4,252 nt of DNA from a virus (lineage: Duplodnaviria > Heunggongvirae > Uroviricota > Caudoviricetes). The notes beneath the pieces were generated by a model. It saw only the letters and a list, made by a program, of their open reading frames with translations, had not been told where the DNA came from and made no database searches. Location: IMG/VR virus record IMGVR_UViG_2713896789_000010. The stretch is one strand, 5' to 3'. Positions 1 to 4,252 of this stretch are shown here, in pieces; position 1 is the first letter of the stretch; the number at the start of each line of letters is the position of its first letter. A program made the translations under genes and the position numbers.

Positions 1-94
1 CGTTAACGGAGCGCGGCGTTGTCCCCTCATGGTCGCTGGTCCGGTGCGATGGTGGAAGAAACTGGATTTTGTTGCAACTGATAACCATTATCAT

Positions 95-125
95 TTTCGC
101 GGGTCCTTTCCGGCGATCCGGGCCG
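95..125 (+). promoter_or_regulatory. cosQ: cosQ-like region (packaging termination element) immediately upstream of cosN
   Basis: Sequence 88-130 (gataaccattatcattttcgcgggtcctttccggcgatccgggccgttacg) closely resembles the lambda right-end sequence as I recall it (…GGGTCCTTTCCGGTGATCCGACAGGTTACG). Exact cosQ boundaries are not determinable by eye; coordinates are approximate. Confidence 0.45.
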
Positions 126-153
126 TTACGGGGCGGCGACCTCGCGCGTTTTC
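120..153. other. cosN: cosN: terminase nicking site with lambda-type 12-nt cohesive end GGGCGGCGACCT at 131-142 (predicted top-strand nick between 130 and 131)
   Basis: Exact 12-mer GGGCGGCGACCT at 131-142 followed by CGCG…TTTTC.CTATTTATGA, matching the lambda left end (GGGCGGCGACCTCGCGGGTTTTCGCTATTTATGAAAATTTT) with a few substitutions; preceded by …CCGTTACG as at the lambda right end. Lies directly upstream of the terminase genes, as in lambda. Confidence 0.8.
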
Positions 154-154
154 A

Positions 155-330
155 CTATTTATGAGATTTTTTGAGGGGGGTGGTTGTTGTTTAATTGTTT
201 GGTATATCTAATTGATAAGTAAGGTGAAAATAAAATAAATACAACAACCTTACGATGTGTTTTGATGTCGTCAATGCGAAAAATGTCAATGATATCAAAT
301 GGTTTTGCAAAAACACATGGTTGTTGTATC
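155..330. promoter_or_regulatory. cosB: cosB-like terminase small-subunit binding region: three copies of a 9-10 bp element (R3-like 181-190 TGGTTGTTGT, R2-like 241-249 ACAACAACC inverted, R1-like 318-327 TGGTTGTTGT) plus an AT-rich candidate IHF site (about 204-240)
   Basis: Seen in sequence: exact 10-mer TGGTTGTTGT at 181-190 and 318-327, and its 9-mer reverse complement ACAACAACC at 241-249. The +/-/+ orientation and distances from the nick (about 52, 111 and 189 bp) parallel the lambda R3/R2/R1 layout, but the lambda R motif CGTTTCC is absent. Between R3-like and R2-like sits an AT-rich tract with TTGATA (213-218) loosely matching the IHF core. Functional assignment is inference. Confidence 0.45.
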
Positions 331-359
331 GCTTTTTATCGATGACTTATGGAGAGGAG

Positions 360-866
360 ATGGCCTTTTTATTGAATAAAAGTGATATGGCCTCCTCCAT
401 CGGTATCTCTGTTCAGGCATTTGATAAATGGGGCGTTCCTCCTGTTGAACGTCGGGGGAGGGAAGTTTTATATGACGTTAAAACTGTACTGGAGATAGAT
501 CGCGAGCGGCGACAACACAATCAGAGAACACCTGATGACGGGGGAGAACTGGAGGAAAGGCTGCTTCGGGCCAGAGCTGAACTGACAGAAGAACAGGCTG
601 TAGCTCAAAAACTTAAAAATCAGGTAACCGAAGGTAAGCTCATTGATTCAGACTTCTGCGTTTTCGCCCTCAGCAAACTGGCGATGGCATTGTCCAGTAC
701 GCTTGATTCCATTCCGTTATCCATGCAGCGACAGTTCCCGGATTTAACGCCACGTCATATTGACCATCTGAAAACCCTTATTGCAAAGGGCGCAAATCAG
801 TGTGCGCGGGCAGGGGATAAATTACCGGATTTGCTGGATGAATATATCAGAGCAACAACTGAATAA
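360..866 (+). CDS. nu1: Terminase small subunit (lambda gpNu1-like), 168 aa
   Basis: The ORF 255-866 translation is alignable to lambda gpNu1 along its length as I recall it (e.g. …GREVLYD… and …FCVFALSKLAMALSSTLDSIPLSMQRQFPDLTPRHIDHLK… versus lambda …GNEVLYD… and …FCTFVLSRIAGEIASILDGLPLSVQRRFPELENRHVDFLK…). Start placed at ATG 360 (MAFLLNKSDMASSIG…), preceded by purine-rich GGAGAGGAG (351-359); ATG 342 is an in-frame alternative. The ORF-track start at 255 would overlap the R1-like element and is unlikely. Stop TAA at 864-866, overlapping the gpA start by 29 nt. Confidence 0.85.
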   Translation: MAFLLNKSDMASSIGISVQAFDKWGVPPVERRGREVLYDVKTVLEIDRERRQHNQRTPDDGGELEERLLRARAELTEEQAVAQKLKNQVTEGKLIDSDFCVFALSKLAMALSSTLDSIPLSMQRQFPDLTPRHIDHLKTLIAKGANQCARAGDKLPDLLDEYIRATTE

Positions 867-2762
867 TATGATGGCTGCCGTTTCGGTTGCGCTGCAGCCT
901 CTGGTCAGAGTTGTACCGATGACGGCAGTTGAATGGGCTGATCAAAATTATTATTTGCCTAAAGACTCCTCATACGGTGACGGCGAATGGAAAACGCTGC
1001 CATTCCAGATCGCCATCATGAACAGCATGGGGAATGATCAGATCCGCACTGTTAATCTGATTAAATCTGCCCGTGTTGGCTATACAAAGATGTTGCTGGG
1101 GGTGGTCGGGTATTTTATTGAGCATAAATCCCGAAACAGTCTGCTTTTTCAGCCCACGGATTCTGCCGCTGAAGATTTTATGAAGTCTCACGTGGAGGCG
1201 ACGATTCGGGACGTGGCATGCCTGAAAGATCTTTCCCCGTGGCTGGGTCGTAAACATCGTGACAATACTCTCACGCTGAAACGCTTTTCATCGGGGGTGG
1301 GCTTCTGGTGCCTGGGTGGTGCGGCAGCAAAAAACTACCGTGAAAAATCCGTGGACGTGGTCTGCTATGACGAACTTTCCTCGTTCGAGCCGGATGTCGA
1401 AAAAGAGGGCTCGCCAACCCTGCTGGGGGATAAGCGTATTGAGGGGTCGGTGTGGCCAAAATCCATTCGCGGCTCGACGCCTAAAATCAAAGGCTCCTGC
1501 CAGATCGAAAAAGCGGCCAACGAGTCGGCGCATTTCATGCGTTTTTATGTGCCCTGCCCGCACTGTGGGGAGGAGCAGTATCTGAAATTTGGNNNNNNNN
1601 NNNNNNNNNNNNNNNNNNNNNNNNNNNNNNNNNNNNNNNNNNCATGGCTGCGTGATCCATCAGTCTGAGCTTGACCAGAGCAACGGGCGGTGGATCTGTG
1701 AAAATACGGGGATGTGGACCCGTGACGGTCTGACGTTTTTCAGCGCCGCGGATAATGAAATTCCGCCGCCGCGCTCCATCACGTTCCACATCTGGACGGC
1801 GTACAGTCCGTTCACCACCTGGGTACAGATAGTCTATGACTGGCTGGATGCNNNNNNNNNNNNNNNNNNNNNNNNNNNNNNNNNNNNNNNNNNNNNNNNN
1901 NGTGAACACCACGCTGGGCGAGACCTGGGAAGAGGCCGTGGGCGAAAAACTCGATCACCAGGTACTGATGGATAAGGTTGTGCGTTACACGGCGGCGGTG
2001 CCTGCCCGGGTGGTTTATCTGACGGCGGGCATTGACTCGCAGCGAAACCGTTTTGAGATGTATGTCTGGGGATGGGCACCGGGAGAGGAAGCCTTTCTGG
2101 TGGATAAAATCATCATTATGGGGCGTCCCGATGAGGAAGAGACGCTGTTACGTGTGGATGCGGCGATCAACAAAAAATACCGTCATGCAGACGGAACCGA
2201 AATGACCATTTCCCGTGTCTGCTGGGACACCGGGGGGATCGATGGCGAAATCGTTTATCAGCGGTCAAAAAAACACGGTGTTTTCCGGGTGCTGCCGGTA
2301 AAAGGCGCATCTGTCTATGGCAAGCCGGTGATCACCATGCCAAAAACCCGCAATCAGCGGGGCGTGTATCTGTGTGAAGTGGGGACGGACACCGCAAAAG
2401 AAATTCTCTATGCCCGTATGAAAGCCGATCCCACGCCTGCGGATGAAGCCACGTCGTATGCCATCCGTTTTCCTGATGATCCGGAGATTTTTTCGCAGAC
2501 AGAGGCGCAGCAACTGGTGGCGGAGGAGCTGGTGGAGAAGTGGGAAAAAGGAAAGATGCGTCTGTTGTGGGATAACAAAAAGCGGCGTAACGAAGCGCTG
2601 GACTGCCTGGTGTATGCCTACGCGGCATTACGTGTGTCTGTGCAACGCTGGCAGCTTGATCTGGCTGTACTGGCAAAATCCCGGGAAGAAGAGACGACCC
2701 GGCCAACCCTGAAAGAACTGGCAGCGAAGCTGTCCGGAGGAGTGAATGGTTACAGTCGCTGA
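838..2762 (+). CDS. A: Terminase large subunit (lambda gpA-like; ATPase/endonuclease), interrupted by two 50-N runs (1593-1642, 1852-1901); readable segments 838-1592 (frame 1), 1643-1851 (frame 2), 1902-2762 (frame 3)
   Basis: Translation from ATG 838 (MNISEQQLNNMM…TAVEWADQNYYLPK…) closely matches lambda gpA as I recall it. Conserved motifs: Walker A-like KSARVGYT (1063-1086, K76), Walker B-like VDVVCYDE (1351-1374, D178/E179), CPHCGEEQYLKFG before the first gap, FHIWTAYSPFTTWVQIV between gaps, nuclease-region YLTAGIDSQ (Asp codon 2034-2036), CWDTGGID, and KKRRNEALDC near the C-terminus. Stop TGA at 2760-2762. Visible residues (about 607) plus lambda-estimated hidden residues approximate the 641 aa of lambda gpA. 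The ORF-track start at 781 is an upstream in-frame extension into Nu1. Confidence 0.9.
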
Positions 2763-2952: not shown

Positions 2953-4252
2953 AACGAACGCCTGTCCTGATTGATGTGAACGGCGTTCCGCTTCGGGAGA
3001 GTCTCAGCTACCACGGGGGCGGTGCAGGATTTGGCGGGCAAATGGCGGAGTGGTTGCCACCGGCGCAGAGTGCCGATGCGGCCCTGCTGCCCGCGTTGCG
3101 TCTGGGGAATGCCCGTGCAGATGATCTGGTACGCAATAACGGGATAGCGGCTAATGCGGTGGCCCTGCATAAGGATCATATTGTCGGGCATATGTTTCTT
3201 ATCAGCTACCGTCCGAACTGGCGCTGGCTGGGGATGCGGGAGACTGCGGCAAAAAGTTTTGTCGATGAGGTGGAGGCGGCCTGGTCGGAATACGCAGAAG
3301 GGATGTTTGGCGAGATCGACGTGGAAGGGAAACGCACGTTCACGGAATTTATCCGTGAAGGTGTGGGCGTTCATGCCTTTAACGGCGAAATCTTTGTGCA
3401 GCCGGTCTGGGATACGGAAACCACGCAGTTATTCCGCACGCGTTTTAAAGCCGTGAGTCCGAAACGGGTGGACACGCCAGGACACGGTATCGGGAATCGT
3501 TTTCTGCGGGCCGGGGTGGAGGTCGATCGATATGGCCGTGCCGTTGCGTACCATATCTGTGAGGATGATTTTCCTCGCTCCTGGAGTGGACGATGGGAAC
3601 GGATCCCGCGTGAACTTCCCACCGGGCGTCCGGCCATGCTGCATATTTTCGAGCCGGTGGAGGACGGGCAGACCCGTGGGGCCAATCAGTTTTACAGCGT
3701 TATGGAACGGCTGAAGATGCTGGATTCCCTGCAGGCAACACAGCTTCAGTCGGCCATTGTTAAAGCCATGTATGCAGCGACGATTGAAAGTGAACTTGAT
3801 ACCGAAAAGGCCTTTGAATATATCGCGGGGGCACCGCAGGGTCAGCAGGATAATCCGCTTATTAATATTCTGGAGAAGTTCTCCAGCTGGTATGACACGA
3901 ATCATGTGACGCTGGGCGGTGTCAAAATTCCGCACCTTTTCCCCGGGGATGATCTGAAACTGCAGACCGCGCAGGATTCAGACAATGGATTTTCGGCGCT
4001 TGAACAGGCGCTGCTGCGGTATATCGCCGCCGGTCTTGGCGTTTCCTACGAACAGTTGTCCCGTGATTACTCGAAGGTCAGTTATTCAAGTGCCCGCGCC
4101 TCCGCCAATGAGTCGTGGCGCTATTTTATGGGACGACGAAAATTTATTGCAGCCCGGCTGGCCACGCAGATGTTTTCCTGCTGGCTGGAAGAGGCACTTC
4201 TTCGGGGGATTATCCGTCCGCCACGGGCACGTTTTGATTTTTATCAGGCGCG
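2949..4252 (+). CDS. B: Portal protein (lambda gpB-like), 5' portion only; ORF runs off the 3' end of the window (about 434 codons visible)
   Basis: Manual translation from ATG 2949 (overlapping the W stop as ATGA) is open to the window end: MKRTPVLIDVNGVPLRESLSYHGGGAGFGGQ…ARADDLVRNNG…HAFNGEIFVQPVWDT…HIFEPVEDGQTRGANQFYSVMERLKMLDSLQATQLQSAIVKAMYAATIESELDT…LLRYIAAGLGVSYEQLSRDYSKVSYSSARASANESWRYFMGRRKF… These blocks match lambda gpB as I recall it. It is absent from the ORF track because no stop codon falls inside the window. Confidence 0.9.
   Translation, partial: MKRTPVLIDVNGVPLRESLSYHGGGAGFGGQMAEWLPPAQSADAALLPALRLGNARADDLVRNNGIAANAVALHKDHIVGHMFLISYRPNWRWLGMRETAAKSFVDEVEAAWSEYAEGMFGEIDVEGKRTFTEFIREGVGVHAFNGEIFVQPVWDTETTQLFRTRFKAVSPKRVDTPGHGIGNRFLRAGVEVDRYGRAVAYHICEDDFPRSWSGRWERIPRELPTGRPAMLHIFEPVEDGQTRGANQFYSVMERLKMLDSLQATQLQSAIVKAMYAATIESELDTEKAFEYIAGAPQGQQDNPLINILEKFSSWYDTNHVTLGGVKIPHLFPGDDLKLQTAQDSDNGFSALEQALLRYIAAGLGVSYEQLSRDYSKVSYSSARASANESWRYFMGRRKFIAARLATQMFSCWLEEALLRGIIRPPRARFDFYQA

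What the first reader, a model, noticed from the sequence alone, without database searches (positions are those of the whole stretch)
95..330. Intact lambda-type cos site with near-identical cosN/cosQ but a different cosB repeat
cosN (GGGCGGCGACCT, 131-142) and the upstream right-end/cosQ sequence are almost lambda-identical, so the cohesive ends would be lambda-compatible. The downstream region lacks the lambda R motif (CGTTTCC) and instead has TGGTTGTTGT at 181-190 and 318-327 with the inverted copy ACAACAACC at 241-249. This keeps the R3(+)/R2(-)/R1(+) layout at similar distances from the nick, which implies a packaging-initiation specificity different from lambda (as described for phage 21 versus lambda).
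Basis: partly seen in the sequence, partly recalled or inferred. Interest (0 to 1): 0.55.

Follow-up and report, generated by a model that had tools for sequence, protein, structure and literature searches.

The report
N15-type (Monarch-like) lambdoid cos site
This is the DNA-packaging start site of a lambda-like E. coli prophage: it has lambda's cutting site, but its terminase-binding repeats are those of phage N15 set out in lambda's three-site layout, a class already described in 2015, so it is real but ordinary.

Summary
cosN (131-142) matches lambda 12/12, and cosQ GGGTCCT lies at 101-107. GGTTGTTGT occurs exactly three times, at 182-190 (+), 241-249 (-) and 319-327 (+), and lambda's CGTTTCC is absent from the region.

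The repeat is not an unknown motif. It is the core of phage N15's R3 site (bp 48-59 GAGGTTGTTGTT), which was defined by mutation; scrambling bp 54-59 cut yield about 100-fold. The small terminase subunit encoded at 360-866 has the N15 recognition helix (GISVQAFDKWGV, identical).

A tripartite R3-I1-R2-R1 cosB with N15-type R sites and no rR2 is the "Monarch" prophage class of Feiss et al. 2015. The + - + layout is kept in 80/80 IMG/VR relatives. R-site columns are invariant in 24/27 cases, against 72/177 in the spacers. The motif sits 77-82 bp from cosQ in more than 100 loci, including Pseudomonas.

The expected specificity is N15-type. Published genetics show this is asymmetric: lambda and 21 do not package N15 DNA, but N15 terminase packages lambda DNA.

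Novelty: already known. Interest: low. Binding, IHF dependence and packaging were not tested for this cos.

The parts
101..107 (+). cosQ (GGGTCCT), the signal for packaging termination and nicking at the downstream cos
   Evidence: Identical to the lambda, 21 and N15 heptamer and at the same 30-bp distance from the nick. Conserved in the 42 distinct relatives. Its function is inferred from lambda genetics (PMC9026076).
131..142 (+). cosN cohesive-end sequence GGGCGGCGACCT (12-nt 5' overhang after staggered nicking)
   Evidence: 12/12 identical to lambda and 21; N15 differs at 2 positions. Nicking was not tested here.
152..174 (+). Conserved cosN-cosB spacer (CACTATTTATGAGATTTTTTGAG); it overlaps the position of the I2 IHF site annotated in phage 21
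   Evidence: The CTAYNTRYGA motif lies 25-27 bp before R3 in about 100 loci, including Pseudomonas. 21's I2 is annotated at bp 30-44. Function is inferred only.
182..190 (+). R3: the proposed primary TerS binding site (GGTTGTTGT; extended GTGGTTGTTGTT at 180-191), bp 52-60 from the nick
   Evidence: 11/12 match to N15 R3 (bp 48-59 GAGGTTGTTGTT) when aligned on the motif. N15 block mutants m1 and m2 lowered yield 7-fold and 100-fold. The motif is 77-82 bp from cosQ in more than 100 loci. 7/9 columns are invariant.
205..217 (-). I1: candidate IHF site (minus strand TATCAATTAGATA) with an A/T tract at 218-240
   Evidence: One mismatch from WATCAANNNNTTR. 9/13 columns are invariant, and TTGATAA is conserved in relatives. 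It has the same position and orientation as 21's annotated I1: bp 72-86 in 21, bp 75-87 here. The consensus match alone is not significant (5 hits against 2.9 expected).
241..249 (-). R2: inverted R copy (ACAACAACC on the + strand), bp 111-119
   Evidence: Exact inverted copy. 9/9 columns are invariant in 42 distinct relatives. It starts 59 bp after R3, compared with 61 bp in lambda.
319..327 (+). R1: third R copy, direct orientation, bp 189-197
   Evidence: Exact copy. 8/9 columns are invariant. It sits at bp 188/189 in most relatives and at bp 176 in a subgroup.
360..866 (+). terS (Nu1 homologue, 168 aa). The N-terminal ~50 aa form an N15-type winged-HTH DNA-binding domain; the C-terminal part is a different mosaic block that binds TerL
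   Evidence: Pfam PF07471 Phage_Nu1, E=1.4e-21. Residues 1-26 differ from N15 gp1 at only 2 positions, and GISVQAFDKWGV is identical. In the AF2 single-sequence model, residues 1-50 have pLDDT 83-89 with beta-alpha-alpha-wing-alpha topology. RefSeq annotates the same 168-aa ORF in a 99.8% identical prophage.
838..2762 (+). terL (lambda A homologue), interrupted in the window by two 50-N placeholders
   Evidence: RefSeq annotation of the 99.8% identical prophage. The N runs replace 73 and 31 nt, so the apparent frame changes are artefacts.

Best explanation
The region 101-359 is the cos site of a lambdoid (lambda-like head and tail) E. coli prophage. It has the 'complex' cosB of N15 packaging specificity, the class that Feiss and co-workers named after the prophage Monarch. 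Proposed mechanism, inferred by homology with lambda and N15: the N-terminal winged-HTH domains of dimeric TerS (gene at 360-866) bind the GGTTGTTGT elements. IHF bends the DNA at I1 (about 205-217), so that R3 (182-190) and the inverted R2 (241-249) face each other and can be bridged by one TerS dimer. R1 (319-327) adds affinity. TerS bound at R3, about 50 bp from the nick, positions TerL to introduce staggered nicks in cosN (131-142). This produces lambda-identical 12-nt cohesive ends, and packaging then proceeds rightward into terS/terL. cosQ (101-107) serves termination at the next cos. What is shown here: the sequence elements, their conservation, their fixed geometry and their co-inheritance with the N15-type TerS domain. 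What is shown in the literature, for N15 only: the motif is required for packaging. What is inferred: TerS binding to all three copies, IHF binding, and the specificity phenotype of this particular cos.
For: (1) Motif identity. N15 carries GGTTGTTGT at bp 50-58, inside its R3 (bp 48-59), and no other R site before gene 1. [quoted passage not shown] (2) Protein match. The window TerS and N15 gp1 share the recognition-helix segment GISVQAFDKWGV exactly, whereas lambda and 21 differ. Pfam Phage_Nu1 gives E=1.4e-21. (3) The literature describes exactly this combination: three R sites, an IHF site between R3 and R2, no rR2, N15-like R3 and recognition helix. This is the Monarch group. (4) Conservation. 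80/80 IMG/VR loci and 2 GTDB loci with this TerS keep + - + copies at bp ~51, ~110 and ~188 or 176. Among 42 distinct sequences, R columns are invariant in 24/27 cases against 72/177 in spacers (p=2e-6). (5) Geometry. R3 starts 77-82 bp from cosQ in more than 100 loci, including Pseudomonas, Halomonas and Aeromonas, even though their cosN sequences differ. Pseudomonas phages F10 and MD8 have the motif at bp 52 and 51 of their records. (6) Cassette swap. Compared with phage PhiR12_1, the window is about 95% identical at 1-172 and again from about 570 onward. It is unrelated across 175-570, which is cosB plus the TerS DNA-binding domain. PhiR12_1 carries different repeats there (CATGTCCGG) and a different HTH. 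(7) No promoter, terminator or Rfam family competes for the region.
Against: There is no binding, footprint or packaging experiment for this cos or for any Monarch-type cos. The published statement is only that a shared specificity is 'suggested'. No isolated phage in the INPHARED collection carries this TerS/cosB, so activity is known only by inference from prophages. N15 itself works with R3 alone, so R2, R1 and I1 need not be essential. The IHF match is a one-mismatch consensus hit that is not significant on its own, and I1 column conservation against spacers gives only p=0.08. R3 here lies at bp 52-60, which is 2 bp further from the nick than in N15 and 1 bp further than in most relatives. 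Lambda tolerates only about 1-2 bp of such shifts. The conservation statistics do not correct for shared ancestry.
Confidence: 0.85

Rival explanations
1. Only R3 is functionally required, as in N15. On this view R2, R1 and the IHF-like site are accessory fitness elements or leftovers of a lambda-like ancestor, and the IHF-bent R3/R2 hairpin does not form or does not matter.
For: N15, with the same recognition helix, packages from a single R3 with no R2, R1 or I1. Simple-cosB relatives dominate outside E. coli. In lambda, R1 is only accessory.
Against: R2 is invariant at 9/9 columns and R1 at 8/9 in 42 distinct sequences, while the intervening spacer is invariant at 17/69. TTGATAA of I1 is conserved. 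The R3-R2 spacing (59 bp) matches lambda's (61 bp). This pattern indicates purifying selection on all three sites.
Confidence: 0.2
2. The cos is a relic in a defective prophage. The elements are intact in sequence, but the phage no longer packages DNA, so the site has no current function.
For: This cos type is known only from prophages. No isolated phage in INPHARED carries it. In the closest complete genome the tail-fibre gene J is frameshifted.
Against: About 220 complete E. coli genomes carry >=80% of 95-900. The 99.8% identical copy sits in an Stx2a prophage with a complete lambda-like head gene set and an intact terS and terL. Site-specific conservation against variable spacers argues for ongoing selection.
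Confidence: 0.1
3. The three 9-mers are chance repeats in an A/T- and G/T-rich intergenic region, or are binding sites for a factor other than TerS (a regulator or a replication iteron).
For: 1% of dinucleotide shuffles of 143-359 give some 9-mer three times. No direct binding data exist.
Against: The motif is deeply conserved at a fixed distance from cosQ and cosN in more than 100 loci across several genera. It is strictly associated with one TerS DNA-binding-domain type and is replaced together with that domain in PhiR12_1. N15 mutational data support it. There is no promoter-like or RNA signal.
Confidence: 0.02

Closest known systems
cosB of the 'Monarch' group of N15-like prophages (Feiss et al. 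2015, Virology 482:260; summarised in PLoS One 10:e0141934, PMC4669245)
   Same: N15-type R3 and N15-type TerS recognition helix. Three R sequences with R2 inverted. An IHF site between R3 and R2. No rR2 inside terS. Lambda-like cosQ and cosN. All of these were found in the window.
   Different: No difference can be demonstrated. The Monarch sequence itself was not available here (the Virology paper is not held), so identity to one of the four described prophages could not be checked. The window has one extra G before R3 compared with most relatives.
Phage N15 cos (simple cosB: R3 plus remote rR2)
   Same: The same R core GGTTGTTGT about 50 bp from the nick. An identical TerS recognition helix. 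A lambda-like cosQ.
   Different: N15 has no R2, R1 or I1. Its gene 1 starts at bp 89 (bp 230 here). It has rR2 at +200 inside gene 1, which is absent here. Its cosN differs from lambda at 2 of 12 positions, whereas the window's is lambda-identical.
Phage lambda / phi80 cos (cosQ-cosN-cosB with R3-I1-R2-R1)
   Same: Identical cosN and cosQ. The same R3(+)-I1-R2(-)-R1(+) architecture. R3 and R2 lie at nearly the same distances from the nick. terS, terL, W and B are homologous.
   Different: The R motif is CGTTTCC in lambda and phi80 and GGTTGTTGT here (6/18 identity over bp 48-65). The TerS recognition helix differs. R1 is about 34 bp further from the nick.
Phage 21 cos (the classic alternative specificity)
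   Same: The same cosN and cosQ, the same tripartite layout, and an I1 at the same position and in the same orientation.
   Different: The R motif is (C)ATGTCGG and the HTH is different. N15-specific terminase does not package 21 DNA.

Membership tests
Lambda-like cos (12-nt 5' cohesive ends; cosQ-cosN-cosB) | 12-bp cosN with strong identity to lambda's | tested here: met
   GGGCGGCGACCT at 131-142, 12/12 identical to lambda.
Lambda-like cos (12-nt 5' cohesive ends; cosQ-cosN-cosB) | 7-bp cosQ GGGTCCT about 30 bp upstream of the nick | tested here: met
   At 101-107, with the same spacing as in lambda, 21 and N15.
Lambda-like cos (12-nt 5' cohesive ends; cosQ-cosN-cosB) | Terminase actually nicks here and generates cohesive ends | not testable with these tools
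   This needs end-mapping of virion DNA or an in vitro cos-cleavage assay.
N15 packaging-specificity group | R3 matching N15 R3 (GAGGTTGTTGTT) about 48-60 bp from the nick | tested here: met
   GTGGTTGTTGTT at 180-191 (bp 50-61) matches 11/12 when aligned on the motif. The offset is +2 bp compared with N15.
N15 packaging-specificity group | TerS recognition helix identical to TerS-N15 | tested here: met
   GISVQAFDKWGV is identical. Residues 1-26 differ from N15 gp1 at 2 positions, both outside that segment (F3V and I14L).
N15 packaging-specificity group | DNA is packaged by N15-specific terminase but not by lambda or 21 terminase | not testable with these tools
   This phenotype is published for N15 cos only. 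It has never been reported for a Monarch-type cos.
Monarch-type complex cosB | Three R sequences, with R2 opposite in orientation to R3 and R1 | tested here: met
   182-190 (+), 241-249 (-), 319-327 (+). The layout is conserved in 80/80 IMG/VR relatives.
Monarch-type complex cosB | [quoted passage not shown] | tested here: inconclusive
   There is a one-mismatch consensus match at 205-217 (-) with a flanking A/T tract. It is conserved and positioned like 21's annotated I1. However, the consensus hit is not statistically significant and binding was not tested.
Monarch-type complex cosB | No rR2 inside terS | tested here: met
   There is no copy at <=1 mismatch within 360-866. The window encodes RRQHNQRTP where simple-cosB relatives encode KQQP = AAACAACAACC.
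Monarch-type complex cosB | Sequence identity to the Monarch prophage itself | not tested
   The Monarch sequence and accession are not available in the papers held.
Simple N15-type cosB | A single R3 directly upstream of terS, plus rR2 at about +200, with no IHF site | tested here: not met
   The window has R2, R1 and an I1-like site. terS starts at bp 230, not about bp 89, and there is no rR2.
Lambda/phi80 or 21 packaging specificity | R motif CGTTTCC (lambda, phi80) or CATGTCGG (21) in cosB | tested here: not met
   No CGTTTCC/GGAAACG occurs before position 3328. Identity to lambda over bp 48-65 is 6/18. The 21 and phi80 motifs were read.
Phage_Nu1 small terminase family (PF07471) | Profile match above the curated threshold, including the N-terminal wHTH | tested here: met
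   77.2 bits against a cutoff of 30, E=1.4e-21, residues 6-149. The AF2 model has a confident wHTH-like N-terminal domain. Direct phmmer and Foldseek matches to the lambda gpNu1 structures (1J9I, 6HN7, 7LW0) were weak or absent.

The most novel reading that the evidence does not exclude
The GGTTGTTGT / TerS(GISVQAFDKW) pair may be an ancient packaging specificity shared across Gammaproteobacteria, not an oddity of N15 and E. coli prophages. It is found in Pseudomonas F10/MD8/LES-type phages, in Halomonas, Aeromonas and Oceanimonas prophages, in N15-like plasmid prophages, and in Stx2a-converting lambdoid prophages such as the window's nearest relative. In the simple form, the remote rR2 site lies at a fixed +200 bp and appears to be held by DNA-level selection inside terS: it is read as AAA CAA CAA CC = KQQP, with CAA in 25/26 motif Gln codons against 44/128 elsewhere. 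If so, rR2 would be a genuine second TerS contact over a ~200-bp loop. The window's tripartite form would be the lambda-style alternative solution to the same two-site requirement. N15-specificity helpers might then cross-package or interfere with Stx prophages that carry this cos.
Probability: 0.3. Interest if true: 0.4.

Novelty: already known. Interest (0 to 1): 0.2.

Why it matters
cosB/TerS specificity decides which co-resident lambdoid genomes a phage can package. It therefore shapes cross-packaging, interference and mobilisation among the many prophages of pathogenic E. coli. A 99.8% identical copy of this cos lies in an Stx2a-converting prophage. The window adds no new principle. It is a well-conserved example of the N15-specificity tripartite cosB, a class that has been described but never tested experimentally. 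It would be a convenient substrate for asking two questions: whether TerS-N15-type proteins use R2, R1 and IHF when these are present, and whether lambda terminase can use such a cos.

Tried and rejected
(1) Megablast and blastn of the cos region against isolated phages found only the cosQ/cosN part plus N15 and MStein for the terS 5' end. No phage record has this cosB. tblastn with the TerS DNA-binding domain confirmed this.

(2) phmmer of TerS against PDB sequences gave only weak hits to the lambda gpNu1 structures (E 0.2-0.6). These are not significant on their own.

(3) The single-sequence AlphaFold model was confident only for residues 1-50. Foldseek against the PDB with the whole model returned helical-bundle noise, with only sub-threshold MerR-like wHTH hits (RacA, BldC). 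This was uninformative, and I did not spend a large homologue search to improve it because the Pfam match already settles family membership.

(4) The IHF consensus scan gave hits no more frequent than chance. The I1 call therefore rests on position and conservation only.

(5) The shuffle test for 'any 9-mer three times' gave p of about 0.01. That is weaker than expected because A/T runs inflate the null.

(6) A neighbour-joining tree of about 56 aa of the DNA-binding domain could not polarise simple against complex cosB. The complex forms make one branch with a simple-cosB Trabulsiella locus nested inside it, and there are no support values. I therefore make no claim for or against Feiss's proposal that N15 arose by R3/R1 unequal crossing-over. 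The bases immediately 3' of N15's R3 (TTAAT) resemble the window's R3 flank rather than its R1 flank, which argues against a crossover strictly within the repeats. This is weak evidence.

(7) Promoter, terminator and Rfam scans of the region found nothing.

(8) Feiss et al. 2015 Virology (PMC4461450 / PMID 25956737) could not be read, so the Monarch sequence could not be compared directly.

Full report
**What is in the window.** The 4252-bp window is the left end of the late operon of a lambdoid prophage.
- The cos region is followed by terS (360-866; Pfam Phage_Nu1, E=1.4e-21).
- terL runs from 838 to 2762, followed by a W-like head-tail joining gene (2746-2952) and the start of the portal gene (from 2950).
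- A 99.8% identical copy lies in an Stx2a-converting prophage of E. coli 2015C-3905, with a complete lambda-like head and tail gene set.
- About 220 of 5426 complete E. coli genomes carry >=80% of positions 95-900.

**Checking the observation.**
- GGTTGTTGT occurs exactly three times in the whole window: 182-190 (+), 241-249 (-) and 319-327 (+).
- cosN (131-142) matches lambda 12/12. cosQ GGGTCCT lies at 101-107, at lambda's spacing from the nick. The 23 bp between cosQ and cosN carry 5 differences.
- Lambda's R core CGTTTCC is absent from the region.
[quoted passage not shown] Lambda's lie at 53-59, 114-120 and 155-161. R3 and R2 are at lambda-like positions, and R1 is about 34 bp further out.
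- A shuffle test alone is only moderately convincing: 1% of dinucleotide shuffles give some 9-mer three times. The case rests on the comparative evidence below.

**What the repeat is.**
- Phage N15 reads GGGCGGCGTCCG...GACATGAGGTTGTTGTTTAATC, with gene 1 starting at bp 89. Its GGTTGTTGT at bp 50-58 lies inside R3-N15 (bp 48-59).
- R3-N15 was defined by two 6-bp block mutations, which lowered phage yield about 7-fold (bp 48-53) and about 100-fold (bp 54-59, GTTGTT) (PMC4669245 section 16).
- The window's TerS begins MAFLLNKSDMASSIGISVQAFDKWGVPPVERRGREV. N15 gp1 begins MAVLLNKSDMASSLGISVQAFDKWGVQPVEKRGREV. The segment that aligns with lambda's recognition helix is identical in the two and different in lambda and 21.
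- A single-sequence AlphaFold model gives a confident (pLDDT 83-89) strand-helix-helix-wing-helix domain for residues 1-50.

**It is a described class.** Feiss and co-workers reported that, besides N15 and its relatives with a 'simple' cosB (R3 plus a remote inverted rR2 inside gene 1), a second group of prophages 'exemplified by Monarch' exists.
- The window shows each of these features. It has three R copies in + - + order. It has an IHF-like site at 205-217 on the minus strand (TATCAATTAGATA, one mismatch from WATCAANNNNTTR, followed by an A/T tract). That site has the same position and orientation as the I1 annotated in phage 21 (bp 72-86 there, bp 75-87 here). No rR2 lies in terS.
- I could not read the primary Virology paper, so I cannot say whether the window is one of the four prophages described there. 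It does fit that class.

**Comparative support for function.**
- I collected 25 loci from GTDB species representatives and 80 from IMG/VR that encode this TerS domain.
- All 80 IMG/VR loci and two Escherichia loci keep the + - + copies at bp ~51, ~110 and ~188, or ~176 in one subgroup.
- Among 42 distinct cosB sequences, 24 of 27 R-site columns are invariant, against 72 of 177 spacer columns (Fisher p=2e-6, not corrected for phylogeny).
- The same cosB is found joined to several different cosN and cosQ-cosN variants.
- In distant relatives from Pseudomonas, Halomonas/Vreelandella, Aeromonas, Oceanimonas, Erwinia and Trabulsiella, the flanks are unalignable. GGTTGTTGT is nevertheless present 77-82 bp from a cosQ-like element and 25-27 bp after a conserved CTAYNTRYGA motif.
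- The Pseudomonas phage records F10 and MD8 carry the motif at bp 52 and 51.
- Against phage PhiR12_1, the window is about 95% identical up to position ~172 and again from ~570. It is unrelated in between. cosB and the TerS DNA-binding domain are therefore exchanged as one ~400-bp cassette, and PhiR12_1 has different repeats (CATGTCCGG) and a different HTH there.
- phi80, which has lambda specificity, carries CGTTTCC-type R sites as expected.

**Mechanism.**
- By homology with lambda (reviewed in PMC9026076), dimeric TerS should dock on R3 and R2 across an IHF-induced bend at I1. R1 would add affinity, and the R3-bound subunit would position TerL to nick cosN.
- These steps are inferred. Only the requirement for the N15 R3 motif has been shown experimentally, and only in N15.
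- The main open alternative is that R3 alone suffices, as in N15. The near-perfect invariance of R2 and R1 against variable spacers argues that they are under selection.

**Specificity.**
The expected specificity is N15-type.
- That specificity is asymmetric. [quoted passage not shown]
- Whether the extra R2 and R1 sites change this for Monarch-type cos sites has not been tested.

**Negative and uninformative results.**
- No sigma-70-like promoter, intrinsic terminator or Rfam family occupies the region.
- Sequence and fold searches against solved structures gave only weak hits to lambda gpNu1 or to MerR-like wHTH proteins.
- A short DNA-binding-domain tree could not decide whether the simple or the complex cosB is ancestral.

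**Verdict.** It is of low novelty. Its main use is as a clean natural substrate for experiments on N15-type packaging recognition. A side observation may be worth a specialist's attention: the remote rR2 site of simple N15-type cos sites lies at a fixed +200 bp, is conserved as far as Pseudomonas, and shows codon evidence for DNA-level selection.

Noticed in passing
L011-L031, L002, L114, L115 (terS genes of simple-cosB relatives); absent from window 360-866: The 'rR2' inverted copy ACAACAACC lies exactly +200/+201 bp from R3 (start to start; +204 in Aeromonas, +211 in Oceanimonas and Oceanisphaera). This holds from N15 to Pseudomonas, Halomonas, Erwinia and Trabulsiella, and in Pseudomonas phages F10 and MD8. 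It is read as AAA CAA CAA CCN = KQQP. In GC-rich hosts the motif's Gln codons are CAA in 25/26 cases against 44/128 elsewhere in the same genes (Fisher p=2e-9, not corrected for phylogeny), which suggests DNA-level selection.
   Followed up: partly
window 175-570 compared with L004 (PhiR12_1) 1175-1570: cosB plus the first ~70 codons of terS form a swappable cassette. The flanks are about 95% identical to PhiR12_1 and the cassette is unrelated. PhiR12_1 has CATGTCCGG / CCGGACATG repeats and a different HTH, which implies yet another packaging specificity on the same cosN, TerS C-terminus and TerL.
   Followed up: partly
window 1593-1642 and 1852-1901: Two runs of exactly 50 N lie inside terL. 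In the 99.8% identical genome they correspond to 73 and 31 nt, so they are fixed-length placeholders. They cause the apparent frame changes among the ORFs at 781-1668, 1589-1975 and 1836-2762. terL is probably intact.
   Followed up: yes
window 293-305 (+): A second IHF-consensus-like sequence, TATCAAATGGTTT (one mismatch), lies between R2 and R1. The ATCAAA..GTTT core recurs in most relatives. It may be a second bend site that would explain why R1 is placed further out than in lambda.
   Followed up: no
window 232-263 and 310-336: R2 and R1 sit inside a longer imperfect inverted repeat (AAAATAAATACAACAACC / GGTTGTTGTATCGCTTTT, plus ACGATGTGTTTT / AAAACACATGGT). Their similarity extends beyond the 9-bp core, as it does for lambda's R2 and R1.
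   Followed up: no
L113 (E. coli 2015C-3905, NZ_CP027371.1 1210591-1251396): The nearest genomic copy of this cos (99.8%) belongs to an Stx2a-converting lambdoid prophage. stx2A and stx2B lie about 9 kb upstream of cos. The gpJ tail-tip gene is annotated as frameshifted.
   Followed up: partly
L078, L081, L092, L096, L098, L112 (IMG/VR relatives): The same N15-type tripartite cosB is joined to quite different cosN and cosQ-cosN sequences, for example GGGTCAGAGGACGCGC and GGGGCGGCAGGCGC. cosB/TerS-DBD and cosN therefore assort independently.
   Followed up: no
window 173-181: The G run before R3 has one more G than in most relatives. This puts R3 at bp 52-60 instead of 51-59 (50-58 in N15). A subgroup of relatives has AGTTGTTGT at R3, so the first G of the 9-mer is not essential.
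   Followed up: partly
phages collection (INPHARED, Aug 2025): No isolated phage record carries the Monarch-type TerS or cosB. The nearest are N15 and Enterobacter phage MStein-2023a (64% over 61 aa), followed by many Pseudomonas aeruginosa temperate phages (LESphi2/3, F10, MD8, JBD68).
   Followed up: yes
window 29-211 (+) and 255-359 (+): The ORF list contains a 60-aa ORF that runs across cosN and an in-frame 35-codon upstream extension of terS starting at ATG 255. Both overlap cos elements, neither is annotated in RefSeq, and terS has a strong GGAGAGGAG Shine-Dalgarno sequence at 351-359. They are almost certainly spurious.
   Followed up: partly
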